Assembly: GCA_017645945.1 (NCBI GenBank)
Contig: JAGCNL010000034.1
Span: 1,503 to 65,502 of the forward strand
DNA: 64,000 bases
Reading direction: 5' to 3'
Source: Salinivirgaceae bacterium
GTDB taxonomy: Bacteria; Bacteroidota; Bacteroidia; Bacteroidales; SZUA-534
Within the stretch, counting starts at the first letter, position 1. Each line of letters begins with the position of its first letter. Below the pieces are notes generated by a model, which searched no databases, was not told the DNA's origin, and saw only the letters and a list, made by a program, of their open reading frames with translations. Positions 36,005-53,289 of this stretch are shown one piece after another. Position numbers and translations under genes: made by a program.

Positions 36005-37153
36005 CTATATCAATGCGTCAACAATTCTACCACACGCCTTACCATCACCATAAGGATTCACGGCTTTGCTCATTTTATCATAATAAGCGGAATCATCCAA
36101 TAGTCGGCTAACCTCACTCACAATCAAGTCATGATTGGTGCCAACAAGTTTCACTGTTCCCGCATCAAGAGCTTCGGGCCGCTCGGTGGTATTACGCATA
36201 ACAAGCACCGGCTTGCCCAAACCAGGTGCTTCCTCTTGTATGCCGCCGCTGTCGGTAAGCACTACGGTGCTTTTCTCCATCAGATATACAAATTCAAGGT
36301 ACTGCAGCGGCTCAATGAAAAAGAAGTTATGGTATACGGTCAAATCATCGCCAAACACTTCGTGAATGGGTTTTCTGACATTGGGGTTTAAGTGCATCGG
36401 ATACACAAAATCAACATCAGGGTATTTTTCACTTAAATCTTTCATGGCGGTCACCATGCTAATGAACCCATCGCCGAAATTCTCTCTGCGGTGCCCTGTT
36501 ATCAATACTAGTTTTCGGCCATTGGCAAGTCGAGTTACATCGTAGCCTGCATTGGCAAGCACCTTCACCTGTTCGTCGGCAAGAGCCTTATCGCTTTTCA
36601 GTTTGTTCACCACCATGTGTAAGGCGTCGATAACCGTGTTGCCTGTCACATATACACTGCCTTGCGCTTTTTCCTCTTCAAGATTTCTTTTTGAAAGCGG
36701 TGTGGGTGCAAAGTTGTAAGTGGCTATGCGCCCTGTAATCTGTCGGTTCATCTCTTCGGGCCATGGACTGTAAATGTTCCGTGTCCGCAAACCCGCCTCA
36801 ACGTGCCCTACATGAATCTGCTGGTAAAAGGCCGCCAAGGCTGCGGCTGTGCTTGTTGTGGTATCACCATGCACAAGCACCACATCGGGTTGGACTTTTG
36901 AAAGCACATCGCGCATTCCTGTGAGCACTCGTGCTGTAACATCGTACAAGTCTTGGCCTTGCTTCATAATGTTCAAGTCGTAGTCGGGCACAACATCAAA
37001 AATGCGCAATACCTGGTCGAGCATTTCTCGGTGCTGACCTGTCACGCATACTATGGTTTCAAATTCTTTCGGATATTTTTGGAACTCTTTCACCAATGGG
37101 CACATCTTTATCGCCTCTGGCCGCGTTCCAAAAACTAGCATTATTTTTTTCAT
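36005..37153 (-). CDS. wecB: UDP-N-acetylglucosamine 2-epimerase (non-hydrolysing)
   Basis: MKKIMLVFGTRPEAIKM..., HVEAGLRT, DSGGIQEEAP. The start at 37153 is preferred over 37195, which would overlap the upstream gene. Confidence 0.9.
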   Translation of the reverse strand: MKKIMLVFGTRPEAIKMCPLVKEFQKYPKEFETIVCVTGQHREMLDQVLRIFDVVPDYDLNIMKQGQDLYDVTARVLTGMRDVLSKVQPDVVLVHGDTTTSTAAALAAFYQQIHVGHVEAGLRTRNIYSPWPEEMNRQITGRIATYNFAPTPLSKRNLEEEKAQGSVYVTGNTVIDALHMVVNKLKSDKALADEQVKVLANAGYDVTRLANGRKLVLITGHRRENFGDGFISMVTAMKDLSEKYPDVDFVYPMHLNPNVRKPIHEVFGDDLTVYHNFFFIEPLQYLEFVYLMEKSTVVLTDSGGIQEEAPGLGKPVLVMRNTTERPEALDAGTVKLVGTNHDLIVSEVSRLLDDSAYYDKMSKAVNPYGDGKACGRIVDALI

Positions 37154-37163
37154 ATTCAATTCG

Positions 37164-38348
37164 TTATATTCTAAACTCTTGGGGTTGCCTTCCATTCCAA
37201 ATAATAAGACATTGTGCTAGAGCCTTCATAAAGTCATTCATCTCTTCCATGTCATCACCTGAACATGCTTTATCTGAACCGCCCCAATTAGATTTTGCAT
37301 GAACAATGCGATTACGAGTTTCATAAATCACTTCTCCCAATTCATCTTTAATCTTGGCAATAATTGAATCGGCACAATTTCCTATTTCGTCAATTTTAAA
37401 AGAGCATTTACGACTAATGTTTATTTGTACCTCTTCTGGTAATAAATCGAAAATTGGAATAATATCCACACATTCTTGCAACACTGTCTTGCACAACTCC
37501 TTATCCTTCAAAGACGTTTGATAATGCTTTGCCAATTCAAGCAAAGAATCAAGATATTGACAATCCCTATTCACTATTGAAAGAGTATCCAGCCGTTGAT
37601 TTAACATTTCATAAGCCATCTTCTTGGATACTCTTGGCGAAAAGTGTTCTACGATTTTATATAAATGATGAAATTGAATATCAGGATCATTAATTCGTAG
37701 GGCATTAGCATAATACCTCATGGCTTCAGAATATGGTATAAGGGAATCTTTTTGCAATTGATACGGTTCAGACGGTTCCTCGCCCGTAATATCTTCCCAA
37801 GAATCAAACGTGCCGACCTCAATAGATATATCGTATTTGGCAGCAATCTGGTAAAGAAATCTCTCTATAATTTTATCTTCTTCATCTTTGGTGTATCGCT
37901 GTTCTGTTTTATAACGTAGTTCTAAAGCGGTATACATCGAACATGGGGAAACTCCAAATTCTTCGTTATAGATACCTTCTTTTGAAGCTACCAAACCAAT
38001 CAAGACAGGATTATAAATAATCTCCATGTCTATCAAGTCATCACTATATCTTACATTGGGCGCAAGATGGTCCAAATAGTAACAGTCAACGTTTAGTATT
38101 GTCTGACGGATATGGTTCATCCGAACAGTAGAGTCATCTTCTTTATTTAAACCATCCAAGTTGCTTGTGTAAAGCATAAAGTCGTCAACAGATATGGGTT
38201 CTTCTAAATTATCATCGGGATAATCAATGAAGATATACTCATCCCCTATCTTGATTTCATCTTCATCAAGGGGGTTGACGTTGAATTCATCATATAGCCT
38301 TTCTAATCGGCTCTTGATAGTTTTTATATTTCTAGTTGAGACTTTCAT
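37164..38348 (-). CDS. 394-aa protein: acidic N-terminal domain of unknown type plus C-terminal HEPN-like domain
   Basis: C-terminal Rx4H motif in IYETRNRIVHAK, preceded by helical segments (AMRYYANALRINDPDIQFHHLYKIVEHF), as in Apea/MAE_28990/Abi-type HEPN families. The N-terminal 200 aa are unrecognised. Confidence 0.5.
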   Translation of the reverse strand: MKVSTRNIKTIKSRLERLYDEFNVNPLDEDEIKIGDEYIFIDYPDDNLEEPISVDDFMLYTSNLDGLNKEDDSTVRMNHIRQTILNVDCYYLDHLAPNVRYSDDLIDMEIIYNPVLIGLVASKEGIYNEEFGVSPCSMYTALELRYKTEQRYTKDEEDKIIERFLYQIAAKYDISIEVGTFDSWEDITGEEPSEPYQLQKDSLIPYSEAMRYYANALRINDPDIQFHHLYKIVEHFSPRVSKKMAYEMLNQRLDTLSIVNRDCQYLDSLLELAKHYQTSLKDKELCKTVLQECVDIIPIFDLLPEEVQINISRKCSFKIDEIGNCADSIIAKIKDELGEVIYETRNRIVHAKSNWGGSDKACSGDDMEEMNDFMKALAQCLIIWNGRQPQEFRI

Positions 38349-38391
38349 ACTTTTTATCTCTTTTGCATTATCAAATTGTTATTTTCAACTA

Positions 38392-39159
38392 TCATTCTTC
38401 AACAATTCCATATTCATCAAATGGCACAATATCGTTTTCCCAAAATTCTATTGGCGACAAGCCGATTGAATGAGTTTTATAGTATAGTGTGAGAGCTATT
38501 GGGCTAGGGGTAATATTGGCATCTAAATTCGCGTCAGTGCACATAAAACCTCCACTGCCAGAAATTGCATCTCCAACTACAAGCAACACAATTGAGCGCA
38601 TATGATCCAACTCGCTATCTAGCCTATAAATATCATCTGTTTCTGCTATTGTAACCAATTCATCAAAAGATATTATCAATGTCTGTGCGGAAAGCAGGTT
38701 ATTTTTGTATTGTATTTTCTTACAATTACGGCAGGCGTAATCTAAGATTCTTGCTTCAACACTACTCATGCGTTTCAGCAAATCCACAAAATTCATGTTG
38801 CTATCATCGCGACCATCTGTCGTGCATGAAGAAGCGAACAGTCCCGCCCATAAGTTTTGTAGTTCGTCATCTTCTATTTGAGAACACTCATCTATTATGG
38901 TGAGCCCAACACGAGCATTTGCTGTAAGTTGAAGAGTCTGCCCATCGAAACACATACGGCCTTTCGCCTTTTCCAGTGTGCGAATAATATTATTCAGGCG
39001 CCATTGTCGAACCTTGTCCTGGATAAGGTATCCTAATTCCTGTAGACAAGGTTTACATACTATCTCCAAAAATGAAGATACTCCTTCTATCGTTGCTTTT
39101 GTAACCTCAAGTCCTGTCTCGGCGACTGGCTTTAAACCTAAAACATCCTTTATCTCCAT
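38392..39159 (-). CDS. Abi-alpha (DUF4393) family protein
   Basis: The N-terminal block CLQELGYLIQDKVRQWRLNNIIRTLEKAK and the later LQNLWAGLFASS match my recollection of the Abi_alpha signature. Confidence 0.65.
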   Translation of the reverse strand: MEIKDVLGLKPVAETGLEVTKATIEGVSSFLEIVCKPCLQELGYLIQDKVRQWRLNNIIRTLEKAKGRMCFDGQTLQLTANARVGLTIIDECSQIEDDELQNLWAGLFASSCTTDGRDDSNMNFVDLLKRMSSVEARILDYACRNCKKIQYKNNLLSAQTLIISFDELVTIAETDDIYRLDSELDHMRSIVLLVVGDAISGSGGFMCTDANLDANITPSPIALTLYYKTHSIGLSPIEFWENDIVPFDEYGIVEE

Positions 39160-39236
39160 ATTTTATGTTCTAATCAGTTTCAAACGGCGAACCGTATTCA
39201 CTTGGTGTTGTATTGGTTTATTCATGTTTATCCAAT

Positions 39237-39608
39237 TTACATTTTTATTCCTTCTAATCTCACCAAAGCATCCTTTTTCCTTGTTTCTATATTGGAATAA
39301 CACATTTGTTTTACAAACATCTTCCAAATCTCACTTTCATGAATATGTTCAAGTCCGAAATCTGTCAAATCTTTATACAGTTTTTCAATCTTGTCCAAAG
39401 TGCTACGGCTAAAGATTCCATCAGACAATTCCTTTTCAATTGACTTGGAATCGTTGCCTTTTAGCATCAATTTAACTTTGTCAAATTCTCGTCTATCGTA
39501 ATCTGTGGCTTGCGGCAACATTATCAATTCGGTAGCCAAAGTGAGCATATAATTGATAAAGTTTACGAAACTATCGTGCAAGTTTGATATGTATTGCTGT
39601 TGAGTCAT
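39237..39608 (-). CDS. 123-aa all-helical hypothetical protein
   Basis: The first ATG is at 39608 (the track start 39653 is TTG). No motif recognised. It is the first gene of the 3-gene module. Confidence 0.4.
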   Translation of the reverse strand: MTQQQYISNLHDSFVNFINYMLTLATELIMLPQATDYDRREFDKVKLMLKGNDSKSIEKELSDGIFSRSTLDKIEKLYKDLTDFGLEHIHESEIWKMFVKQMCYSNIETRKKDALVRLEGIKM

Positions 39609-39682
39609 ATATAAGTTTTTGTGTTCGCTTATTCTGCAATTAAACTGGCACAAATCTCATCAGTTTATTTATGCCGTGCAAA

Positions 39683-39713
39683 GAAAAAGCTCTGCCAATT
39701 TTGTGCAGTAAAT
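39683..39713. repeat. 31-bp direct repeat, copy 1 (flanks the SatD/DUF3307 cassette)
   Basis: GAAAAAGCTCTGCCAATTTTGTGCAGTAAAT matches 41297-41327 at 30 of 31 positions. Confidence 0.9.
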
Positions 39714-39749
39714 AAAAACTAACTGTGCGTCGTATCGATTATACTGGCG

Positions 39750-40448
39750 CTATGCTATCATACAAACCAACAATCCAACCAGAACTGCAATTGCAATACT
39801 GAGCAATGTTCCCACCAGAAAATATTCGGTTTCACTCTTATTGCCAAATCGGATAATTGATTTAGCCGCTATCAGGAAACCTATAACCTCATACTTGCCT
39901 AAAATTATAAAAGCCAATATTAGCCATCGTTCTAATGTCCCTATCAGTTTTCCTGCATGAAAGGCATCCATTTTCTCATCAGGCAATTTCACATTGTTAT
40001 AAACCAAAATGTTTTTGACAAATATGTTTGCTGGTTTCCAACACAAAATAGCGGCAAGCGCTATGGCTTCCACTTTCAAAACTGACACTGTGAACCAACG
40101 GGGACTCGTCCAATCAAAGAATTTCACACTTGCGTATGTTACAATAATTAAAATGGCAATATGTAAAATTTGGTCTATGGCAAACGTCCAAATGTTGTCT
40201 TCCTTTGTAAGTGCCGCCTTCGCCAAATCTATCAACAAATGGCTTGCTCCTATTATCAGGGCAAAACACCAAAACTTAATATTCCAAAACGCAATAAGCG
40301 ATGTGCCAGCTACAATAAGCGCATGGACATACATAAACCAACTGGCGCATTTCTTCTCTTTCTTCTGGACACATAGAGTTTCCGTTTGCAATACAAAATC
40401 GGCAATAAAATGAACCAACAGCAGACTCACGAGCAAATTAATCAACAT
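39750..40448 (-). CDS. DUF3307-family polytopic membrane protein
   Basis: The N-terminus LLLVHFIADFVLQT is the DUF3307 hallmark. Further intramembrane His/Asp pairs (SHLLIDLAK, IDQILHIAIL). It overlaps satD by 11 nt. Confidence 0.7.
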   Translation of the reverse strand: MLINLLVSLLLVHFIADFVLQTETLCVQKKEKKCASWFMYVHALIVAGTSLIAFWNIKFWCFALIIGASHLLIDLAKAALTKEDNIWTFAIDQILHIAILIIVTYASVKFFDWTSPRWFTVSVLKVEAIALAAILCWKPANIFVKNILVYNNVKLPDEKMDAFHAGKLIGTLERWLILAFIILGKYEVIGFLIAAKSIIRFGNKSETEYFLVGTLLSIAIAVLVGLLVCMIA

Positions 40449-41112
40449 AATCTTCGAATTTTATTTTTTCTAAAACACCTATCGCATTTCTTATAAGTTG
40501 CCATCCTGCACTTTTTGCCCTCAAGTTAACCGCCGCCTGGCTTGCCGACAACTCTTTGGCTATTTCAACTTCTCTCCATCCCAACAATTTATAGTATATC
40601 ACAAGGCATTGACGTTCTGTGAAACTGTCAATCATATTGTCAATCAATCTCAAATTGGTGGTTATAAGCGATTCTATATCTGCGTTCTCAGAACTAATTC
40701 CAAACATTGACGAATATCCGTTGGTATAAATGTAGTCCAAATTTCGACCCGCTATATATATGGCTTCCCCGTCCAGGAAATCTTCTCTCTTGTTAACAAT
40801 TCGCATGGTTCCTATTCCTATTGAATATCGGATTCCGCATTCCTTCATAAAATGTGATGCGTCATGGCCAAACGCCCATTTTTTGAACCAACACTTCATC
40901 AATATTGCTATTCTGAAAGCATACCACGGTTCGTCTATGCAACTTTCAATTGTATCACCCCTTACAACCCTTCCCCAAAAATCGGAACTTATCAAGGCAA
41001 GGTCCGAAAACAAATCTGCATATATTGCCCTACGCAATTGCAATAATTCATTTTCCTGCAATGATGTGGAATCCACCACATCACATGATACTATAGCATA
41101 TAACCTTCTCAT
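40438..41112 (-). CDS. SatD-family protein (cyclase-like N-domain plus C-terminal sigma-70 region-4-like HTH)
   Basis: The N-terminus YAIVSCDVVDSTSL...RGDTIES resembles the SatD/nucleotide-cyclase fold. The C-terminus ERQCLVIYYKLLGWREVEIAKELSASQAAVNLRAKSA is HTH-like. Paired with DUF3307, as is usual for SatD. Confidence 0.7.
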   Translation of the reverse strand: MRRLYAIVSCDVVDSTSLQENELLQLRRAIYADLFSDLALISSDFWGRVVRGDTIESCIDEPWYAFRIAILMKCWFKKWAFGHDASHFMKECGIRYSIGIGTMRIVNKREDFLDGEAIYIAGRNLDYIYTNGYSSMFGISSENADIESLITTNLRLIDNMIDSFTERQCLVIYYKLLGWREVEIAKELSASQAAVNLRAKSAGWQLIRNAIGVLEKIKFEDYVD

Positions 41113-41131
41113 TACACAAATATATTAGGTT

Positions 41132-41200
41132 TTTCCCTAATAAACAATATTTATTAAGTTTTTCCCTAATATTTTATGATTATTAGACATTTCCCTAATA
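41132..41200. promoter_or_regulatory. three 11-bp iterons (TTTCCCTAATA) at exact 29-bp spacing upstream of satD
   Basis: Copies at 41132-41142, 41161-41171 and 41190-41200. The intervening sequence is not conserved. The array starts 20 bp upstream of the satD ATG. Confidence 0.55.
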
Positions 41201-41296
41201 ACCATCACCTGCTTATGTCAACTTCTGCATAATCTCAATTTACAATTTCAGCAAGAAAACCAACACAAGTTTTCATTTGTCAATATACGATTCCGC

Positions 41297-41327
41297 GAAA
41301 AAGCACTGCCAATTTTGTGCAGTAAAT
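41297..41327. repeat. 31-bp direct repeat, copy 2
   Basis: GAAAAAGCACTGCCAATTTTGTGCAGTAAAT, located 1614 bp from copy 1. Confidence 0.9.
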
Positions 41328-41380
41328 TTTGTTTGAAGTTGTGTGAGTTACGAGCAATCTTAAACTGTATTCTAAACGAA

Positions 41381-41683
41381 CTATTCCTCGTGCATATTCT
41401 GTGCATGACAAGCGTCAACTATGGTAACCGTGCTACCGTCGAAAGTATAGGCGAAATACCATTTGTCGGTGTTGGCCATGTAATAGCCGTTCCAACGGGT
41501 TATGGTTGGATTTCGGCGTAAAAGAGTTTGTTCAATTTGGTAAATGGAAAAGACTGCATCATGGACATTTCGTTTCAAATCGGCTTTATCATAAGTGTGG
41601 CGGTACTTCTTTGCCACATTCTGATAAAAAGAGAATTTTTTTTGTGCTGCGCGTGGCTTGATAATATAATTCAAATTAGCCAT
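41381..41683 (-). CDS. RelE/ParE-superfamily toxin-like protein
   Basis: About 100 aa. The C-terminus WYFAYTFDGSTVTIVDACHAQNM resembles the ParE terminal strand-helix. The ATG at 41683 overlaps the upstream stop by 8 nt (the track start is TTG). Confidence 0.45.
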   Translation of the reverse strand: MANLNYIIKPRAAQKKFSFYQNVAKKYRHTYDKADLKRNVHDAVFSIYQIEQTLLRRNPTITRWNGYYMANTDKWYFAYTFDGSTVTIVDACHAQNMHEE

Positions 41684-41891
41684 TGGCGTATATTGAATCA
41701 ATCTCCTCCGAAATCACACCATATAAACCATCTACCGTTATGTCACGTTGCAGCGCAGACATGCGGCTTTCGGATTTCACATGAGCATCCAACACATCTT
41801 GAGCCCAACGGCGTATGGCTTCCTTACTATCAAGGTCAGGGCGGGCAGCCTTGATTGCATTCTCATCTATTTCTAAAGTTAATGTACACAT
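41676..41891 (-). CDS. 71-aa putative antitoxin
   Basis: A small acidic protein directly upstream of and overlapping the toxin-like ORF. No family recognised. Confidence 0.35.
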   Translation of the reverse strand: MCTLTLEIDENAIKAARPDLDSKEAIRRWAQDVLDAHVKSESRMSALQRDITVDGLYGVISEEIDSIYANG

Positions 41892-41954
41892 GGTCTTATA
41901 TGTTTTTTACAAATGTAACCGAATTTAATAAATGTATAAGTTTGCATTAAATCC

Positions 41955-42953
41955 TTATAACAGGCTTGCGACACGTATAGAGAAAGCCTCATTAAAAGGA
42001 ATTTTCTCGTGATTGTTACAATACTCTTTCCATGCCTTCTCTTCATGACTTATGCGAGATAACTCACGAGACGATTTTTTACCAAGTAATGAACAAACCT
42101 TATCCATTACTTGAAGTTCAAAATCGGTAAACAGAGAAACATCGGCGTTTTGAGTTGCAATCAGAACGCTCCCTTCAAAATCGCCTGCCTGGCGGAACTC
42201 TTGATGTACTTCAGGAAACTCGCTGTACACCTTCTCCCATCGTTCCGGCACCGGCCCAAAATCTACAGCCCGATACGAAAGTCCCGTAATAGCCATTCCA
42301 CTGTCGCGATACGAGAGAAAATCGACATAAAACAACAGCTTGTTCATTTTGGTGCACCACACATCATCACATCTCTCTAATATGTACAGCATAACGTTCT
42401 TCAACCTATCCAACGATAGTTGTGCATAGCCATTCTCCTTGTTTCGCAATGTTGAGAAAATTCGTTTGATTTCGTATTGTTCCAATTTATAAGAGTCGCT
42501 GTCGGCAATAATGGATTTCACCTTGCTGCTGATTTTTTCGTAATCAGACTGCGACATCTCATTCTTCGAACTTTCAACCATCTCCAACATCACCTTGGGG
42601 TTGCTTATTGAGCGTATCATTCTACCGTTCGAGACACTGGGCACTTCGCCTTGTTCATATTTACGGTACTGATTAACACCTATGCCTAGTATCAACGACA
42701 TTTTTGCCGCACTGACATCATATTTGTTCCTTATCGATATTATTTCATCGGTATATGGAATGCCGTATTTATCTCTATATTGGTTGGTTACCTGTACAAA
42801 CCCCGCAGTATCGCTCAAATCATCGGTAAAACTCTCACCAGAATCACTGCAGAACCAAGATGAATGTTCATACTCATACTGTTCGCCACGAAAATTCCAG
42901 ATGCGTTTCTCGTATACGCGTTGCATTTCTTTACCTGTAAACGGGCTTTTCAT
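41955..42953 (-). CDS. MqsA-like (degenerate Zn ribbon plus XRE HTH) antitoxin fused to a Panacea/DUF4065 (SocA-like) domain
   Basis: The N-terminus aligns by eye with E. coli MqsA (FRG..., GIGVNQYRKYEQGEVPSVSNGRMIRSI versus GGGVNAFSRYEKGNAQPHPSTIKLLRVL), but the Cys ligands are lost. The C-terminal KLLFYVDFLSYRDSGMAITGLSYRAVDFGPVP is the DUF4065 signature. Confidence 0.65.
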   Translation of the reverse strand: MKSPFTGKEMQRVYEKRIWNFRGEQYEYEHSSWFCSDSGESFTDDLSDTAGFVQVTNQYRDKYGIPYTDEIISIRNKYDVSAAKMSLILGIGVNQYRKYEQGEVPSVSNGRMIRSISNPKVMLEMVESSKNEMSQSDYEKISSKVKSIIADSDSYKLEQYEIKRIFSTLRNKENGYAQLSLDRLKNVMLYILERCDDVWCTKMNKLLFYVDFLSYRDSGMAITGLSYRAVDFGPVPERWEKVYSEFPEVHQEFRQAGDFEGSVLIATQNADVSLFTDFELQVMDKVCSLLGKKSSRELSRISHEEKAWKEYCNNHEKIPFNEAFSIRVASLL

Positions 42954-42955
42954 AA

Positions 42956-43312
42956 CTACTCCTCCATTTTAAACGGATACAACAAAGGCTGTTCGGCTAT
43001 ATGAAAAGAGATACAAATTGTTTGACAACCAACTCCGCCTAACATAATCTTGATATATATTTCACGGCCTTTTACATCTTTTCCGAAAACCCACATTTCA
43101 CCAAGTTTGTTCAACTCGTCCACTACCGGGCCTTGCACGTAATCCTCAACCATAAGGTTTTCGATAACAACTCTTCTGTACGAAGGAACAATCTCCAATT
43201 CTTCAAGTGTTTTCTGGTTTTTCCCTCTATCATCGCGATAGATTATGCCAAAAACCTTCAACTTTTGATGAAACTGCACCAAGAATTTTTGTACTTCGTC
43301 TTTTGTTACCAT
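42956..43312 (-). CDS. MqsR-like toxin
   Basis: 118 aa, with the toxin-first gene order of mqsRA. The C-terminus EIYIKIMLGG...ICISFHIAE resembles MqsR QVYLKITVIHDVLIVSFKEK. Confidence 0.5.
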   Translation of the reverse strand: MVTKDEVQKFLVQFHQKLKVFGIIYRDDRGKNQKTLEELEIVPSYRRVVIENLMVEDYVQGPVVDELNKLGEMWVFGKDVKGREIYIKIMLGGVGCQTICISFHIAEQPLLYPFKMEE

Positions 43313-43373
43313 AATTCACTTTTGAGTTGCAAAAGTATTTGATTTAACGCAAAAATACAACTTTAAGGTTGAT

Positions 43374-43392
43374 TATAATTTGGCAAATTATA
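43374..43392. promoter_or_regulatory. 19-bp palindrome upstream of the mqsR-like gene (candidate operator)
   Basis: TATAATTTG-G-CAAATTATA, 62-80 bp upstream of the ATG at 43312. Confidence 0.35.
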
Positions 43393-43437
43393 AATGTTTG
43401 AATGTGGAATGTGAAATTGTGTGGTATTCGAAGACGG

Positions 43438-43788
43438 TCAATTTTCTTTAATGCCATTCAACAATTCTTGTATCTGAAATGTGAGCGAAGGAATGATATT
43501 CTTTGCAACATCCCAAACTATATGATAATTAACACCCATGTAATCATGCACCAATCTGTCGCGCATACCCGCCATCTGTTTCCATTCTATACTTCTCCAT
43601 TCATATTTAACATCGGCGAGTATTTTCTTTGTTGCCTCACCAATTATTGAAAGGCTTCTTGTCACAGCACGTTTCAATGTCTCATCAGCAAGGAATTGGT
43701 CAATGACCATTTCTTTGGTTATTACCGAGTTAATGTAATTGCACTCATCAAGAATGTGCTGAAGATATGGGATAAACGATTTACACAT
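43438..43788 (-). CDS. hepT: HepT-like HEPN (DUF86) toxin
   Basis: 116 aa with Rx4H in MRDRLVHDY. It overlaps the upstream nucleotidyltransferase gene by 8 nt. Confidence 0.8.
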   Translation of the reverse strand: MCKSFIPYLQHILDECNYINSVITKEMVIDQFLADETLKRAVTRSLSIIGEATKKILADVKYEWRSIEWKQMAGMRDRLVHDYMGVNYHIVWDVAKNIIPSLTFQIQELLNGIKEN

Positions 43789-44074
43789 ATTCCACTTCGT
43801 TTAATATGATTTTACCAATATAAGGGCTCATTCCGTTACGGGTAACAACATCGAGTTTGTGCCGTTTGAAATTTTGTTCAAGAATTTGACACGCATCAAT
43901 AAAATTCACATACGTTTCCTGCCCTTCTTTAAAATCGAGCAAAATATCGATGTCACTATGGGCGGTATTATCACCACGGACAGTTGACCCAAAAAGCCCC
44001 AATTGTGACACGCCAACATTGCTCAACTGCTCTTTTAGGCTATTCAGCCTATGCAATACAGAACTTTTCTTCAT
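43781..44074 (-). CDS. mntA: MntA-like minimal nucleotidyltransferase antitoxin
   Basis: 97 aa with the NTase motif LFGSTVRGDNTAHSDIDILLDF. Confidence 0.85.
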   Translation of the reverse strand: MKKSSVLHRLNSLKEQLSNVGVSQLGLFGSTVRGDNTAHSDIDILLDFKEGQETYVNFIDACQILEQNFKRHKLDVVTRNGMSPYIGKIILNEVEYV

Positions 44075-44118
44075 AGCTAATGTAACTCAAAATATTATTA
44101 CAGAAAACCTCTCCACAA

Positions 44119-44137
44119 ATGAATGAACATCATTCAT
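44119..44137. promoter_or_regulatory. inverted repeat upstream of mntA (candidate operator)
   Basis: ATGAATGA-ACA-TCATTCAT with perfect 8-bp arms, 45-63 bp upstream of the mntA ATG. Confidence 0.35.
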
Positions 44138-44273
44138 GTCGCTTTCTCCCACAGCTTCGCCACTGTCGGGTGCGGGTTTCGCACGACAATGACTTATCAA
44201 ACAAATGTAGAAAAAAAGCAGAATGGATTTAAAAGATTTATTGTTTTGCCGAAGGCCGTGCAACCTTACACTT

Positions 44274-44321
44274 ACAACTCAAAACTTTGAACTTAAAACT
44301 TATAACTCAAAACTTAACTCA
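44274..44321. repeat. 14-bp tandem repeat (about 3.4 copies) at the wecA stop / island boundary
   Basis: ACAACTCAAAACTT TGAACTTAAAACTT ATAACTCAAAACTT AACTCA, read directly. Confidence 0.8.
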
Positions 44322-45488
44322 TCGTTCCATCTTGCGGTCCATCAGGCGGCGCATCAGGTCCCAGAAGCCTTTGCGCTCAACATGCGATGCCTCGCCAACA
44401 CGCAGCAGCCAATTGTAAATGGCCGAATTGCGGCGCTGTTGGACTCTGACAAACTGATAGAACCCGAAGGTAACGAGTAGTGCCAGCAGCAGAACAATAT
44501 AGAGTTGAAGATTGATTGACGCGCCCAACTTGTACGACAGGAACCAGACAACCACCACCGCAAAGTCGGTGAGAATCAGGCAGACGGTGGTGCCCACATG
44601 CGAGAATCCCATCTCAATGAACAGATGGTGAAGGTGCAGTTTGTCGGGGCGGAAAGGCGGCAAGCCGTTGATTATGCGGGCAAGCATCACCCTTAACGTG
44701 TCGAACACAGGCACAGCCAGAACGGCCAGTGTGAACGGAATCAGACCCACACCTTTCAGCATCAGAGCGGTGCTGGCGGGGTTGGTTGTCAGAATCGTCA
44801 TCACAAACAGTGCCATGATGGTACCCATAAGCAGTGTGCCGCCGTCGCCGATGAACATTTTCGACTTGCGGCCGAACACATTATGCAGGAAGAAAGGAAT
44901 GAGTGCGCCAGCAGCACCCACGGCGATTATCATCATTGTTTGATTTCCAAGAGCATAGAACATGATGGCGAACACCGAGCAGGCCATTGCGCCAAAGCCC
45001 GACGAGTAGCCGTCGACACCGTCGATAAGGTTGATGGCGTTCATGATGCCCACCGAAGCAAACACCGTGAGCGGAACGCAAAAATAATCGGGAACGCTGC
45101 GAACGCCCCAGAGTCGGTAAAAATCACCTAACTTAATGTCGCCCAAATAGATGACATACAACACAACACCTATCTCGAAGATGAATCTCACTGCGGGTGA
45201 CAAGCCTTTGGCATCGTCGATGGTGCCGATAATCAGCATCACCGTCATGGCAATGACTGTGATTGTGAGCATTTTGGTGTCTAAAAAGAAAACGCCAAGG
45301 ATTGTAACAATCAGAATACCAACAAAAACGGTTATGCCGCCAAGCACGGGCACAGGCACGCGCTGCAGTTTGCGGGCGTCGGGGTTGTCAACAATGCCAT
45401 ACTTGATGGCGAAGTTCAACACCCAACCGTAGATGAACCACGTTGACACGAATGCTGTTACAAATGATATGGCTACCTTCCAAAACAT
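44319..45488 (-). CDS. wecA: undecaprenyl-phosphate HexNAc-1-phosphate transferase (WecA/MraY family)
   Basis: Polytopic protein with DNPDARKLQRVPVPVLGGI and NAINLIDGVDG motifs. Confidence 0.85.
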   Translation of the reverse strand: MFWKVAISFVTAFVSTWFIYGWVLNFAIKYGIVDNPDARKLQRVPVPVLGGITVFVGILIVTILGVFFLDTKMLTITVIAMTVMLIIGTIDDAKGLSPAVRFIFEIGVVLYVIYLGDIKLGDFYRLWGVRSVPDYFCVPLTVFASVGIMNAINLIDGVDGYSSGFGAMACSVFAIMFYALGNQTMMIIAVGAAGALIPFFLHNVFGRKSKMFIGDGGTLLMGTIMALFVMTILTTNPASTALMLKGVGLIPFTLAVLAVPVFDTLRVMLARIINGLPPFRPDKLHLHHLFIEMGFSHVGTTVCLILTDFAVVVVWFLSYKLGASINLQLYIVLLLALLVTFGFYQFVRVQQRRNSAIYNWLLRVGEASHVERKGFWDLMRRLMDRKMER

Positions 45489-46885: not shown

Positions 46886-47239
46886 CTATTTATCTGTTTT
46901 ATCAATCAATTTTGCAATCATTCTCCTTATTTCAATCACTTCTTTTGCTAATTCATCGTATTCTGTTTCTGTAAGATAGTCTAATTCATGAGCCAGTTGT
47001 AATTCATAATCGACTTCACTCGCAGAACCAACAGAAATCTGCAAAAAACGACAAAAATCAGCATCACTTTTTCTGCCGCAACCTTCTGCTATGTTTGTCG
47101 GAATCGACATAGCCGCGCGCCTAATTTGCGATGTAAGCCCGTATATTTCTTCTTTGGGGAATTTGCGAGTTATTTGATACACATTTATCACAAAGGTATG
47201 GCTACGAGACCAAACTGTCAGATTTCTAAAATCTCTCAT
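46886..47239 (-). CDS. four-helix-bundle protein (23S rRNA intervening-sequence protein family)
   Basis: Hallmarks [26 protein letters not shown] and [10 protein letters not shown]. The ATG at 47239 lies 2 nt after the upstream stop (the track start is TTG). Confidence 0.85.
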
Positions 47240-47241
47240 AA

Positions 47242-48267
47242 TCAAACATTTTTATTATGATTAACAGACTCACATCCGCTCATGGCTGACTGCTCATTGC
47301 TCAAAGCTGAAAAATACCATTTACAAGCCTCCCTCAACCCCTCTTTAAAGAAATATTTCGGTGCGTAACCCAACAGATTTTTCGCTTTTTCGATTGATGC
47401 AAGCGAGTGCGGAATGTCGCCAGCACGATTTGGGCCGTGAACTGGTTCAATTTTTGCAATCTCAGCATCGTATTCTGACAAGTTTTCTTTCAGATAATCA
47501 AACAGTTGATTCAATGTTGTGCGCTCGCCGCAAGCCGTATTGTAAATCTGATTGACGGCTTGTTGATTGTCGGTCAGCATTGCCAAAAGGTTCATTTCCA
47601 CCACGTTGTCGATGTATGTAAAATCGCGGCTGTAATCGCCTGTGCCGTTGATAGTCGGTTGCTCGTGAGCGATTAACTTCTTAACAAACAACGGAATGAC
47701 TGCTGCATATGCTCCATTTGGGTCCTGTCGGCGGCCAAAAACGTTGAAATAACGCAGACCGATATATTCAATGCCGTATGTCCGTGCAAAAACATCGGCA
47801 TACAACTCGTTGACATACTTTGTAATAGCGTACGGCGACAAAGGGCGCCCAATCACATCCTCAACCTTTGGCAGAGTGGTCGAATCGCCGTAAGTGGATG
47901 AACTGGCGGCGAAAATGAAACGTTTCACTTTGGCGTCACGGGCTGCAATGAGCATATTCAAGAATCCGCCGATATTCACCGCATTGGTTGTGGCAGGGTC
48001 TTTAATCGAGCGGGGCACTGAACCCAAAGCGGCTTCGTGCAACACGTAGTCGGCACCGTTGACGGCCGTCTGGCAATCACTCAAATTGCGGATATCGCCC
48101 ACAATAAGGCTGAAACGGTCAGGGTATTTTTCGAGCAACGGATTGATATTTTCGATGTGACCAGTCGAAAAATTGTCAAGGCAGACCACCTCGTCGCCGC
48201 GCTCAAGAAGCGCCTCGCACAAATTCGAGCCTATAAATCCCGCTCCGCCTGTTACTAAAACCTTCAT
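47242..48267 (-). CDS. UDP-HexNAc(A) 4-epimerase (TviC/WbpP-like SDR)
   Basis: MKVLVTGGAGFIGSNL, catalytic YAITKY, and pairing with a TviB-like dehydrogenase. The ATG is at 48267. Confidence 0.8.
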   Translation of the reverse strand: MKVLVTGGAGFIGSNLCEALLERGDEVVCLDNFSTGHIENINPLLEKYPDRFSLIVGDIRNLSDCQTAVNGADYVLHEAALGSVPRSIKDPATTNAVNIGGFLNMLIAARDAKVKRFIFAASSSTYGDSTTLPKVEDVIGRPLSPYAITKYVNELYADVFARTYGIEYIGLRYFNVFGRRQDPNGAYAAVIPLFVKKLIAHEQPTINGTGDYSRDFTYIDNVVEMNLLAMLTDNQQAVNQIYNTACGERTTLNQLFDYLKENLSEYDAEIAKIEPVHGPNRAGDIPHSLASIEKAKNLLGYAPKYFFKEGLREACKWYFSALSNEQSAMSGCESVNHNKNV

Positions 48268-52848: not shown

Positions 52849-53289
52849 CTAATACAACCATTCAGGAATTTCTCCTTTATATTGATAGTTTTTGATTTTT
52901 TCAAACCCTATTCCAAGAACAAGTTCCTCAACATTAAAATTAATCAAATAACCTAACGGTTTATTGGCCAAATGAAGGTAATTGTTCAGTTGTTTATAAT
53001 GAATGCTTTCAAATGCGGCAATCGATTTAAGTTCAAGAATTAAAATGTTTTCCACTAAAATATCCATACGAAATCCCAAACCTAAATCCTCACCACAATA
53101 AGCAACATTTATGGGGACCTCGCTTTCGGCCGCTATTCCTTGATTTTTTAATTCAATTAATAAAGCCTTTTTATATACCGATTCTAAAAGTCCTGACCCT
53201 AATTTTGAATGAACTTTCATAGCGCAACCAATAACTTTATACGCTAAAGTATCTTTCTTGCACTTTGTATATTCCTCCAATAAATCCAT
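52849..53289 (-). CDS. GxxExxY protein (PD-(D/E)xK-like small protein family)
   Basis: GLLESVY motif and FRMDILVENILILELKS, 146 aa. Confidence 0.85.
   Translation of the reverse strand: MDLLEEYTKCKKDTLAYKVIGCAMKVHSKLGSGLLESVYKKALLIELKNQGIAAESEVPINVAYCGEDLGLGFRMDILVENILILELKSIAAFESIHYKQLNNYLHLANKPLGYLINFNVEELVLGIGFEKIKNYQYKGEIPEWLY

What the first reader, a model, noticed from the sequence alone, without database searches (positions are those of the whole stretch)
37164..39608. Candidate undescribed 3-gene defence module: 123-aa helical protein, Abi-alpha protein, 394-aa NTD-HEPN protein
**Organisation**
- Three tightly spaced same-strand genes, with gaps of 77 and 43 bp.

**Components**
- The middle protein carries the Abi-alpha/DUF4393 signature (LQELGYLIQDKVRQWRLNNIIRTLEKAK). 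This family is named after a lactococcal abortive-infection gene, and its mechanism is unknown.
- The last protein ends in a HEPN-type helical domain with the Rx4H catalytic motif (ETRNRIVHAK). This predicts an RNase effector.
- That HEPN domain is fused to an acidic 200-aa N-terminal domain I cannot assign.
- The first protein has no recognisable motif.

**Interpretation**
- I do not recognise this combination as a named system.
- The logic (sensor or adaptor plus HEPN RNase, inside a TA/Abi island) fits an abortive-infection system.
- The absence of an obvious antitoxin-like NTase or HTH partner for this HEPN is notable.
Basis: partly seen in the sequence, partly recalled or inferred. Interest (0 to 1): 0.82.

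Follow-up and report, generated by a model that had tools for sequence, protein, structure and literature searches.

The report
Three independent defence genes, not one system
The three genes are real and conserved, but they are three separately exchangeable cargo genes (a small unknown protein, an Abi-alpha abortive-infection protein and a stand-alone HEPN-type predicted RNase) in a variable defence/toxin-antitoxin slot of a Bacteroidales surface-polysaccharide locus, not a dedicated three-gene system.

Summary
**Observation: confirmed.** Three minus-strand ORFs lie as described: A 39237-39608 (123 aa), B 38392-39159 (255 aa) and C 37164-38348 (394 aa). The gaps are 77 and 43 nt. All three are under purifying selection (dN/dS 0.10-0.19).

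**Protein assignments**
- B is a bona fide Pfam Abi_alpha member.
- C ends in RNRIVH. Its R and H are invariant across 72 relatives down to about 15% identity.

**Interpretation as a three-gene module: not supported**
- None of 80 metagenomic loci encoding C relatives has A or B within 5 kb.
- 12 of 14 genomic A loci lack B, and none has C.
- B mostly occurs without A, and never with C.
- Three near-identical haplotypes of this same locus swap the genes one at a time:
  - 514 aa + C + WecB
  - B + 687-aa HATPase + WecB
  - A + B + 687 aa

**What is there**
- A mosaic defence/TA island sits between a WecA-like gene and wecB.
- B is probably a single-gene Abi, as shown for Enterococcus Abi-alpha.
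- C belongs to a large, uncharacterised two-domain family (at least 500 clusters at 50% identity). Its C-terminal domain is MauJ/DzbB-type HEPN-like and its N-terminal domain is unassigned.
- C is most likely a self-contained sensor-RNase. Fold searches did not confirm HEPN.

**Interest:** moderate.

The parts
39237..39608 (-). Gene A: a 123-aa conserved small protein of unknown function. The family has the N-terminal motif MTQQQY[IL]SN[WL]HDSFVN. It is found in polysaccharide loci of rumen Bacteroidales next to varied cargo.
   Evidence: - ORF.
- 75 homologue clusters. Alignment A3.
- No Pfam, NCBIfam, PADLOC, PHROG or PDB-sequence hit.
- dN/dS 0.10.
- Contexts.
38392..39159 (-). Gene B: a 255-aa Abi-alpha (DUF4393) family protein. 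It is a candidate single-gene abortive-infection protein.
   Evidence: - Pfam Abi_alpha, E = 4e-15 and above the cut-off.
- PADLOC PDC-S47, E = 5.5e-10.
- More than 255 homologue clusters.
- dN/dS 0.18.
- One gene is sufficient in E. faecalis: PMC6356687.
37749..38348 (-). Gene C, N-terminal domain (about residues 1-200). It is acidic, predicted alpha/beta, and unassigned. It is the candidate sensor or regulatory domain.
   Evidence: - AF2 model with pLDDT mostly 85-96 over residues 1-180.
- No family hit.
- No PDB fold or sequence hit.
- Conserved together with the C-terminal domain in full-length relatives down to about 30% identity.
37164..37748 (-). Gene C, C-terminal all-helical domain (about residues 201-394). 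It is of the MauJ/DzbB type and HEPN-like.
   Evidence: - Pfam MauJ 2.1e-6 (29.0 against 28 bits) and HEPN_Apea 1.9e-3.
- PADLOC DzbB 1e-5, matching profile positions 201-331 only.
- Family-wide hits to MauJ 41/72, DzbB 30/72, HEPN_Apea 10/72, plus PD-T4-2_B, CARF_HEPN, Cas13a, Csx1 and Abi_2.
- AF2 model of this domain alone: pLDDT 83.9, pTM 0.79.
37299..37316 (-). RNRIVH (R345-H350), the Rx4H motif and predicted RNase active site.
   Evidence: - Translation.
- R345 and H350 are invariant, and T344, N346, A351, K352 and N354 nearly invariant, in 72 diverse relatives.
- The motif is predicted at the end of helix 327-349 and the start of the loop before the last helix. This is the position described for HEPN domains (PMC3710099).
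36005..37195 (-). UDP-GlcNAc 2-epimerase (WecB). This is the conserved downstream flank of the variable slot.
   Evidence: - Pfam Epimerase_2, E = 1.4e-114.
- About 91-92% nucleotide identity to L001 and L125 directly after the variable gene.
39683..39713 (.). Copy 2 of a 31-nt direct repeat, lying in the conserved 142-nt block upstream of A.
   Evidence: - Repeat family D3, 97% identical copies.
- 2 matches against 0.02 expected by chance.
- The block is conserved in L001 and L125.
41297..41327 (.). Copy 1 of the 31-nt direct repeat. Together the two copies bracket the SatD-like + DUF3307 cassette (39750-41112), which is absent from L001 and L125.
39750..44074 (-). The rest of the accessory island:
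- DUF3307 and a SatD-like protein
- 106-aa and 71-aa ORFs
- an MqsA-HTH/SocA_Panacea antitoxin-like protein plus a 118-aa ORF
- a HepT(HEPN)/MNT toxin-antitoxin pair
   Evidence: Pfam and NCBIfam hits.

Best explanation
**Overall reading**
A, B and C are three separately inherited cargo genes. They lie side by side in a hypervariable accessory slot of a Bacteroidales surface-polysaccharide locus, between a GT4/WecA-like gene and wecB. This slot collects toxin-antitoxin and anti-phage genes and exchanges them gene by gene. They are not an obligate three-component system.

**Gene B**
- B is an Abi-alpha family protein and most likely acts alone.
- The founding Enterococcus protein does so: it causes premature lysis or death of infected cells.
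- Its molecular mechanism is unknown.

**Gene C**
- C is a member of a large, uncharacterised two-domain family.
- Its C-terminal helical domain carries an invariant R-N-x3-H motif plus an invariant upstream glutamate. It is most likely a metal-independent HEPN endoribonuclease.
- The conserved acidic N-terminal alpha/beta domain is inferred to keep the RNase off until it senses an infection cue.
- On activation, dimerised or oligomerised HEPN sites would cleave cellular or phage RNA (tRNA or mRNA) and abort infection. This is the logic shown for ApeA.

**Gene A**
A is a conserved small protein of unknown role. It recurs next to many different cargo genes.

**Shown and inferred**
- Shown: gene reality, family assignments, motif conservation, lack of co-occurrence, cassette swapping.
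- Inferred: RNase activity, sensor role of the N-terminal domain, defence function.
For: **Independence of the three genes**
- 0 of 80 loci encoding C relatives carry A or B within 5 kb.
- C sits next to RADAR-like, Gabija-like, Eco57I-type RM, TIR_2 and other genes.
- 128 non-redundant neighbours of C fall into 112 Pfam families, and none recurs more than 4 times.
- A occurs without B in 12 of 14 genomes.
- B occurs without A or C in L027, L125, L127, L128 and L129.

**Same-locus haplotypes**
- L001: Panacea gene, a stub of A, a 514-aa gene, then C (92% aa identity) and WecB.
- L125: B (87%), a 687-aa gene, then WecB (92%).
- L010: A, B, then the 687-aa gene.
- Sources.

**B acting alone**
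- Pfam Abi_alpha above the cut-off.
- The single gene is sufficient in E. faecalis (PMC6356687).

**C as a HEPN-like RNase**
- E234, R345 and H350 are the only invariant columns in 72 relatives at 15-48% identity.
- Asparagine follows the R. The motif sits at the helix end and loop start, and the acidic residue lies in an earlier helix. All three match the HEPN description in PMC3710099.
- Hits converge on HEPN-type models: MauJ, DzbB, HEPN_Apea, PD-T4-2_B, CARF_HEPN, Cas13a, Csx1 and Abi_2.
- The family is large and keeps both domains together.
- ApeA is a precedent for a ligand-sensing domain fused to a HEPN tRNase in one protein (bioRxiv 10.64898/2026.01.26.701840).

**Purifying selection** acts on all three genes.
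Against: - Foldseek of the full-length and C-terminal models found no solved HEPN structure (best E = 0.35 and 0.83). The BFVD top hit, a 'MAE-28990/MAE-18760-like HEPN' phage protein, is not significant (E = 0.69).
- HEPN_Apea scores below its Pfam cut-off. I did not verify that Pfam MauJ is formally classed as HEPN.
- In two clades, C relatives are tightly coupled to a downstream gene with a 4-9 nt gap: TIR_2, a 198-aa TM protein or a 341-aa TM protein. Some family members may therefore work with partners.
- A and B keep an identical 77-nt spacing in two different locus backgrounds.
- No terminator-like site separates A, B and C, so they are probably co-transcribed.
- No experiment bears on any function.
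Confidence: 0.68

Rival explanations
1. C family proteins are a shared module that pairs with an interchangeable adjacent effector. In this window, Abi-alpha (B) would be C's partner, making B+C (with or without A) a lineage-specific functional system.
For: - In the ~48% identity clade, C relatives are followed at 4-6 nt by either a TIR_2 protein or a 198-aa TM protein.
- In the ~31% identity clade, they are preceded by a 76-aa HTH protein and followed at 9 nt by a 341-aa TM protein.
- B and C are 43 nt apart with no terminator-like site between them.
- DzbB, which shares the C-terminal domain, works with a partner. Its deletion could not be transformed.
Against: - The partner genes in those clades lie downstream of C. 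Here the downstream gene is wecB.
- The closest C relatives (92%, 72% and 65% identity) have unrelated neighbours on both sides.
- B at 87% identity is followed by a 687-aa HATPase_c_3 protein instead of C in two backgrounds.
- No neighbour family recurs across the C family as a whole.
Confidence: 0.12
2. A and B form a two-gene unit, for example with A as a regulator or neutraliser of Abi-alpha. C would be unrelated to this unit.
For: - A then B with the same 77-nt spacer, about 87.6% nucleotide identity across the whole block, occurs in a different polysaccharide locus (L009-L011, L124).
- An A-like gene lies about 900 nt downstream of B in L023/L111.
Against: - A occurs without B in 12 of 14 genome loci and in L012 and L015.
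- B has no A within 3-6 kb in L027, L125, L127, L128 and L129.
- In L125 the homology to B starts 25 nt upstream of its ATG, behind unrelated genes.
- Enterococcal Abi-alpha works alone.
Confidence: 0.12
3. The genes are not anti-phage. They would be addiction or stabilisation modules, or accessory or regulatory factors of the polysaccharide locus. The HEPN-like domain would be a non-catalytic or housekeeping RNA-binding or RNA-processing domain.
For: - The island is embedded, in the same orientation, in a polysaccharide biosynthesis gene cluster.
- Many neighbours are TA-type genes.
- Pfam's name for the closest family (MauJ) comes from a methylamine-utilisation cluster.
- No structural confirmation of HEPN was obtained.
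Against: - C relatives also lie outside polysaccharide loci, beside RADAR-like, Gabija-like, RM, TIR, putAbiC and STAND genes and on a conjugative-element-like region.
- Strict invariance of R and H argues for catalysis.
- Abi-alpha has an experimentally shown Abi phenotype.
Confidence: 0.08

Closest known systems
Abi-alpha (E. faecalis V583 prophage-6 ef2833; Pfam PF14337 Abi_alpha/DUF4393; PADLOC candidate PDC-S47)
   Same: - B matches the Pfam model above its cut-off and the PDC-S47 models.
- Size is similar: 255 aa against 272 aa.
- It sits among other defence and TA genes.
   Different: - The host is a Gram-negative rumen Bacteroidales. The gene is chromosomal, in a polysaccharide locus rather than a prophage.
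- Only residues 79-195 align to the model.
- The phenotype is untested.
DzbB of the Dazbog system (DzbA, a DUF262 protein, plus DzbB)
   Same: - The C-terminal domain of C, and of 30 of 72 family members, matches the C-terminal third of the DzbB profile (positions about 198-331).
- Overall layout is similar: about 200 aa, then about 140-190 aa of helical domain.
   Different: - The N-terminal two-thirds of DzbB is never matched.
- No DzbA/DUF262 partner is present. A, B and the other island genes scanned (39750-43312) gave no DzbA hit.
- E-values are weak (1e-5).
- C is therefore a relative by domain, not a Dazbog component.
ApeA (single-protein HEPN defence: ApeA_NTD1 plus HEPN_Apea)
   Same: - It is a one-polypeptide design: a non-catalytic N-terminal domain plus a C-terminal Rx4H HEPN domain, with no antitoxin.
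- C gives a weak HEPN_Apea hit, as do 10 of 72 relatives.
- ApeA is activated by ligand binding and cleaves tRNA anticodon loops. This is the working model proposed for C.
   Different: - The HEPN_Apea score is below the Pfam cut-off (19.1 against 24.4 bits).
- The N-terminal domain of C (about 200 aa, alpha/beta) has no ApeA_NTD1 hit.
- Oligomeric state, ligand and substrate are unknown.
Pfam PF17419 MauJ (methylamine utilisation protein MauJ family)
   Same: This is the best curated family hit: 29.0 bits against a 28-bit cut-off for C, and 41 of 72 relatives hit it.
   Different: - The model is only 116 positions long. In most relatives only its first ~30 positions align.
- The family has no known function, and no link to methylamine genes exists here.
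HepT/MNT (HEPN-nucleotidyltransferase) type II/VII toxin-antitoxin pairs
   Same: - Both use an Rx4H HEPN RNase toxin logic.
- A genuine HepT/MNT pair lies 5 kb upstream in the same island (43438-44074).
   Different: - C has no adjacent MNT gene.
- It is three times larger than HepT.
- It carries its own N-terminal domain.

Membership tests
Dedicated three-gene system (A+B+C) | The components co-occur and are co-inherited across genomes. | tested here: not met
   - 0 of 80 C loci have A or B.
- 0 of 14 A loci have C, and 12 of 14 lack B.
- 0 of 6 B genome loci have C.
- The trio is seen only in contigs carrying the identical B protein, i.e. the same lineage.
Dedicated three-gene system (A+B+C) | The unit is exchanged as a block between related loci. 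| tested here: not met
   - L001 keeps C but has a 514-aa gene and a 14-codon stub of A.
- L125 keeps B but has a 687-aa gene in C's place.
- The junctions lie close to the gene boundaries of B and C.
Pfam Abi_alpha (gene B) | The HMM score is above the curated gathering threshold. | tested here: met
   56.8 bits against 29, E = 4e-15.
Pfam Abi_alpha (gene B) | Abortive-infection phenotype from the single gene. | not testable with these tools
   This is known only for E. faecalis ef2833 (PMC6356687).
HEPN superfamily (C-terminal domain of C) | A conserved Rx4-6H motif with a polar residue after the R. | tested here: met
   - The motif is RNRIVH.
- R345 and H350 are invariant and N346 is conserved in at least 90% of 72 relatives.
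- The criterion comes from PMC3710099.
HEPN superfamily (C-terminal domain of C) | [quoted passage not shown] | tested here: met
   - AF2 places the motif at the end of helix 327-349, followed by a loop and then helix 364-387.
- Invariant E234 lies in helix 222-236.
- This rests on a predicted structure only.
HEPN superfamily (C-terminal domain of C) | Fold similarity to solved HEPN structures. | tested here: inconclusive
   - Foldseek against PDB gave best E = 0.83 for the C-terminal domain and 0.35 for the full-length model, with no HEPN chains.
- BFVD's top hit is a MAE_28990/18760-like HEPN protein, but E = 0.69.
- Profile-against-PDB sequence searches were empty.
HEPN superfamily (C-terminal domain of C) | A profile match to a curated HEPN family above its threshold. 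| tested here: inconclusive
   - HEPN_Apea scores 19.1 bits, below its 24.4-bit cut-off.
- MauJ scores 29.0 bits, above its 28-bit cut-off, but its clan membership was not verified here.
- Weak hits from relatives converge on DzbB, PD-T4-2_B, CARF_HEPN, Cas13a, Csx1 and Abi_2.
Dazbog (DzbA+DzbB) | An adjacent DzbA (DUF262) partner. | tested here: not met
   - No DzbA or DUF262 hit for A, B or the other island genes scanned (39750-43312).
- No such family appears among the 25 most frequent of the 112 Pfam families listed for neighbours of C relatives.
Dazbog (DzbA+DzbB) | A full-length match to the DzbB profile. | tested here: not met
   Only profile positions about 198-331 of 341 are matched, at E = 1e-5.
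ApeA | ApeA_NTD1 plus HEPN_Apea, both above threshold. | tested here: not met
   No N-terminal domain hit, and HEPN_Apea is below its cut-off.
HEPN-MNT toxin-antitoxin | An adjacent minimal nucleotidyltransferase antitoxin. | tested here: not met
   - The neighbours of C are B (Abi_alpha) and WecB.
- The island's MNT (43781-44074) is paired with its own HepT.

The most novel reading that the evidence does not exclude
C would found an unrecognised, widespread family (at least 500 clusters at 50% identity) of single-polypeptide abortive-infection RNases. A previously undescribed acidic alpha/beta domain would sense infection and gate a MauJ/DzbB-type HEPN nuclease. In addition, the surface-polysaccharide loci of rumen and gut Bacteroidales would act as a dedicated hotspot where defence and TA genes are swapped one gene at a time. 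These genes would probably be co-transcribed with capsule genes, coupling intracellular immunity to surface variation.
Probability: 0.3. Interest if true: 0.6.

Novelty: new variant of a known kind. Interest (0 to 1): 0.38.

Why it matters
**What this guards against**
Tight spacing and a plausible 'sensor plus effector' story are not enough to call a new multi-gene defence system. Here, comparison of sister haplotypes shows gene-by-gene cassette exchange.

**Two useful leads remain**
1. A large, unnamed two-domain HEPN-like family sits in defence islands of gut and rumen Bacteroidales. Current defence catalogues catch it only as a weak DzbB hit. It is a cheap single-gene candidate for phage-defence testing in a phylum where few systems have been validated.
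2. Polysaccharide loci may be hotspots that accumulate and shuffle immunity genes. This could link capsule variation and intracellular defence in Bacteroidales-phage ecology.

Tried and rejected
- **Fold searches.**
  - The full-length AF2 model against PDB gave nothing.
  - I re-predicted the C-terminal domain alone (pTM 0.79). Searches against PDB and BFVD found no significant match.
- **PDB sequence searches.** Profiles of the C family (A1, A4) and the A family (A3) returned only chance hits.
- **Gene A identity.** Pfam, NCBIfam, PADLOC and PHROGs gave nothing for A.
- **A hidden analogue of A in L125.** hhalign of the 130-aa ORF upstream of B in L125 against the A family gave probability 1.9%. 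Rejected.
- **Dazbog.** Rejected: only the C-terminal part of DzbB matches, and there is no DUF262 partner.
- **A conserved partner for C.** I clustered immediate neighbours and ran Pfam on 128 non-redundant neighbours. Only clade-specific partners appeared.
- **The 31-nt repeat elsewhere.** An exact core was not found in the other loci. Near-identical copies exist in L001 and L125 by alignment.
- **Promoters and terminators.** The sigma-70 promoter scan is uninformative for Bacteroidales, and no terminator lies between the genes.
- **Literature.** A search for defence genes embedded in Bacteroides capsule loci found no direct description. A search for MauJ plus HEPN found nothing relevant.
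Full report
**1. Observation**

- A: 39237-39608, 123 aa.
- B: 38392-39159, 255 aa.
- C: 37164-38348, 394 aa.
- The gaps are 77 and 43 nt. C's last 32 nt overlap the next gene.

Both quoted peptides are present, and RNRIVH maps to 37299-37316. All three are real genes:
- Each has many homologues (52, 75 and more than 255 clusters).
- dN/dS against close relatives is 0.13, 0.10 and 0.18. The flanking housekeeping-type genes give about 0.05-0.06.
- Homologues support the 123-aa start of A, although a gene caller had used a later Met.

**2. What each protein is**

B:
- It matches Pfam Abi_alpha well above threshold (E = 4e-15) and the PADLOC single-gene candidate PDC-S47.
- The family's founder is ef2833 of Enterococcus faecalis V583 prophage 6, not a lactococcal gene. 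Cloned alone, it gives an abortive-infection phenotype with premature lysis (PMC6356687).

C:
- It has two predicted domains (AF2, pLDDT 81.7).
- The N-terminal alpha/beta domain is acidic (44 D+E against 20 K+R) and matches nothing.
- The C-terminal all-helical domain hits Pfam MauJ (29.0 against 28 bits), HEPN_Apea (sub-threshold) and the C-terminal third of PADLOC DzbB.

A:
- It has no detectable relative of known function.

**3. Context**

The three genes end a roughly 7-kb island of accessory genes (37164-44074). The island also holds:
- a HepT/MNT pair;
- an MqsA-HTH/SocA_Panacea protein with a 118-aa partner;
- two small ORFs;
- a SatD-like/DUF3307 pair.

The island lies between a GT4 (WecA-like) gene and wecB. 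It is inside a surface-polysaccharide locus with UDP-glucose dehydrogenase, DegT, an acetyltransferase, Wzx and Wzy, all on the same strand. The closest genomes are rumen 'Salinivirgaceae'/Bacteroidales MAGs.

**4. Test of the module hypothesis**

Co-occurrence:
- Of 80 metagenomic loci encoding C relatives (28-63% identity), none has a tblastn hit to A or B within 5 kb.
- Closer C relatives (92, 72, 65, 51 and 49% identity) have different neighbours:
  - a 514-aa unknown protein;
  - a RADAR-like pair;
  - DegT and a 706-aa unknown protein;
  - a 310-aa unknown protein beside Gabija-like genes;
  - an Eco57I-type methylase and a TIR protein.
- 128 non-redundant neighbours fall into 112 Pfam families. 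The commonest, putAbiC, occurs four times.
- The A family is found in rumen Prevotella, Segatella and other Bacteroidales. 12 of 14 loci lack B and none has C.
- B relatives stand without A in L027, L125, L127, L128 and L129, and never next to C.
- The trio reappears only on contigs carrying the identical B protein, i.e. the same lineage in other samples.

**5. Sister haplotypes show gene-by-gene exchange**

| Locus | Arrangement | Source |
|---|---|---|
| Window | A, B, C, wecB | |
| L001 | Flanks about 90% identical to the window. Between the Panacea gene and C there is only the conserved 142-nt block, a 14-codon stub of A ending in TGA, and an unrelated 514-aa gene. Homology resumes 5 nt before C's ATG. 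| |
| L125 | Same o106 gene and 31-nt element, then four unrelated ORFs, then B (87%, homology starting 25 nt before its ATG), then a 687-aa gene in place of C, then wecB (92%, homology starting at C's stop codon). | |
| L010 | In a different polysaccharide locus: A, B, then a 687-aa HATPase_c_3 protein. | |

B and C are therefore each replaced independently, at junctions close to their gene boundaries, and A is cut by a breakpoint inside it.

**6. Is C's C-terminal domain HEPN?**

For:
- An exhaustive profile search finds at least 500 clusters at 50% identity. Of these, 269 have E <= 1e-10, and most are 380-430 aa and match full length.
- In 72 diverse members (15-48% identity) the only invariant columns are E234, R345 and H350. 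T344, N346, A351, K352 and N354 are nearly invariant.
- The HEPN survey (PMC3710099) gives three defining features:
  - an Rx4-6H motif with a polar N, D or H after the R;
  - an upstream acidic residue.
- The AF2 models place RNRIVH at the end of helix 327-349, before a loop and the final helix. E234 lies in an earlier helix, with a helical insert between.
- Members of the family hit MauJ (41/72), DzbB (30/72) and HEPN_Apea (10/72). Sporadic hits go to PD-T4-2_B, CARF_HEPN, Cas13a, Csx1 and Abi_2.

Against:
- Foldseek found no solved HEPN structure for either model.
- The top viral hit, annotated as a MAE_28990/18760-like HEPN, is not significant.

I rate the HEPN assignment probable (about 0.75), not proven.

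**7. Mechanism**

- Shown: the points in sections 1-6.
- Inferred for C: it is a self-contained sensor-effector.
  - Strict R/H conservation implies a metal-independent RNase.
  - There is no antitoxin, and an N-terminal domain is always fused. Together these suggest autoinhibition that an infection cue relieves.
  - ApeA is the precedent. Its non-catalytic part binds deoxydinucleotides and switches on anticodon-loop cleavage.
- Inferred for B: it acts alone, like enterococcal Abi-alpha, by an unknown mechanism.
- Gene A: its function is unknown. It recurs beside many cargo genes, and 5' fragments of it occur at junctions (L001, L023). This suggests it often lies at recombination boundaries.
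- Caveat: in two C clades a downstream gene is tightly coupled, so partner-dependent variants of the family may exist. The downstream genes are TIR_2, a 198-aa TM protein, or a 341-aa TM protein with an upstream HTH.

**8. Comparison with known systems and novelty**

- B is a new member of a known family.
- C is not Dazbog: there is no DUF262 partner and only the C-terminal third of DzbB matches.
- C is not ApeA: there is no ApeA_NTD1 and HEPN_Apea is sub-threshold.
- C is not a HEPN-MNT toxin-antitoxin.
- C works like the single-protein HEPN defences but has an undescribed N-terminal domain. That makes it a new variant of a known kind.
- The three-gene system as proposed is not a real unit.

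**9. Verdict**

- The module interpretation is not supported.
- The residual interest is moderate. It rests on the untested HEPN-like family and on the polysaccharide-locus defence hotspot.

Noticed in passing
window 39683-39713 and 41297-41327: A 31-nt direct repeat (97% identical; 2 hits against 0.02 expected by chance) brackets the SatD-like + DUF3307 gene pair (39750-41112). Sister loci L001 and L125 have a single copy and lack the pair. This suggests cassette gain or loss by recombination at the element.
   Followed up: partly
window 41120-41204: Three tandem 29-nt units, each with the palindrome TTAGGnnnnnCCTAA, lie immediately upstream of the SatD-like gene (start at 41112). This looks like an operator array for an HTH regulator.
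   Followed up: no
L001 6171-6215: A 14-codon stub of gene A (MTKEQYISNLHDGL, then a stop) is retained in the closest genome. It marks a recombination breakpoint inside A.
   Followed up: yes
window 36005-45488; loci L001, L002, L009-L012, L015, L018, L023, L027, L125: Surface-polysaccharide loci of rumen and gut Bacteroidales repeatedly carry different defence or TA cargo in the same region. Examples are RADAR-like genes, TIR_2, AbiTii, PIN, AAA_15/AAA_21, Panacea antitoxins, a Metallophos-STAND protein, HATPase_c_3 and DUF3791/DUF3990. This points to a defence hotspot inside capsule or O-antigen loci.
   Followed up: partly
L033-L047 (human-gut contigs) and L022: In the ~48% identity clade, the C-like gene overlaps the end of a 1100-1200-aa Eco57I-type methylase/restriction gene by 4-7 nt. 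It is followed at 4-6 nt by either a TIR_2 protein or a 198-aa membrane protein, an effector-swap pattern.
   Followed up: partly
L089-L108 (human-gut contigs): In the ~31% identity clade there is a conserved trio: a 76-aa HTH protein, the C-like protein, and a 341-aa protein with a transmembrane segment, with gaps of 18 and 9 nt.
   Followed up: no
L009-L011, L124 and L125: B at 87% identity is followed, at about 20-25 nt, by a 687-aa gene in two different locus backgrounds. In L009-L011 the product has a recorded HATPase_c_3 hit. This could be chance cassette adjacency or a real Abi-alpha + GHKL-ATPase pairing.
   Followed up: no
window 46886-47245 and 52849-53289: Two small ORFs are embedded among the sugar-nucleotide genes upstream. 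By eye they resemble 23S-rRNA-IVP four-helix-bundle and GxxExxY-type proteins, the kinds also seen in related loci. They were not tested against profiles.
   Followed up: no
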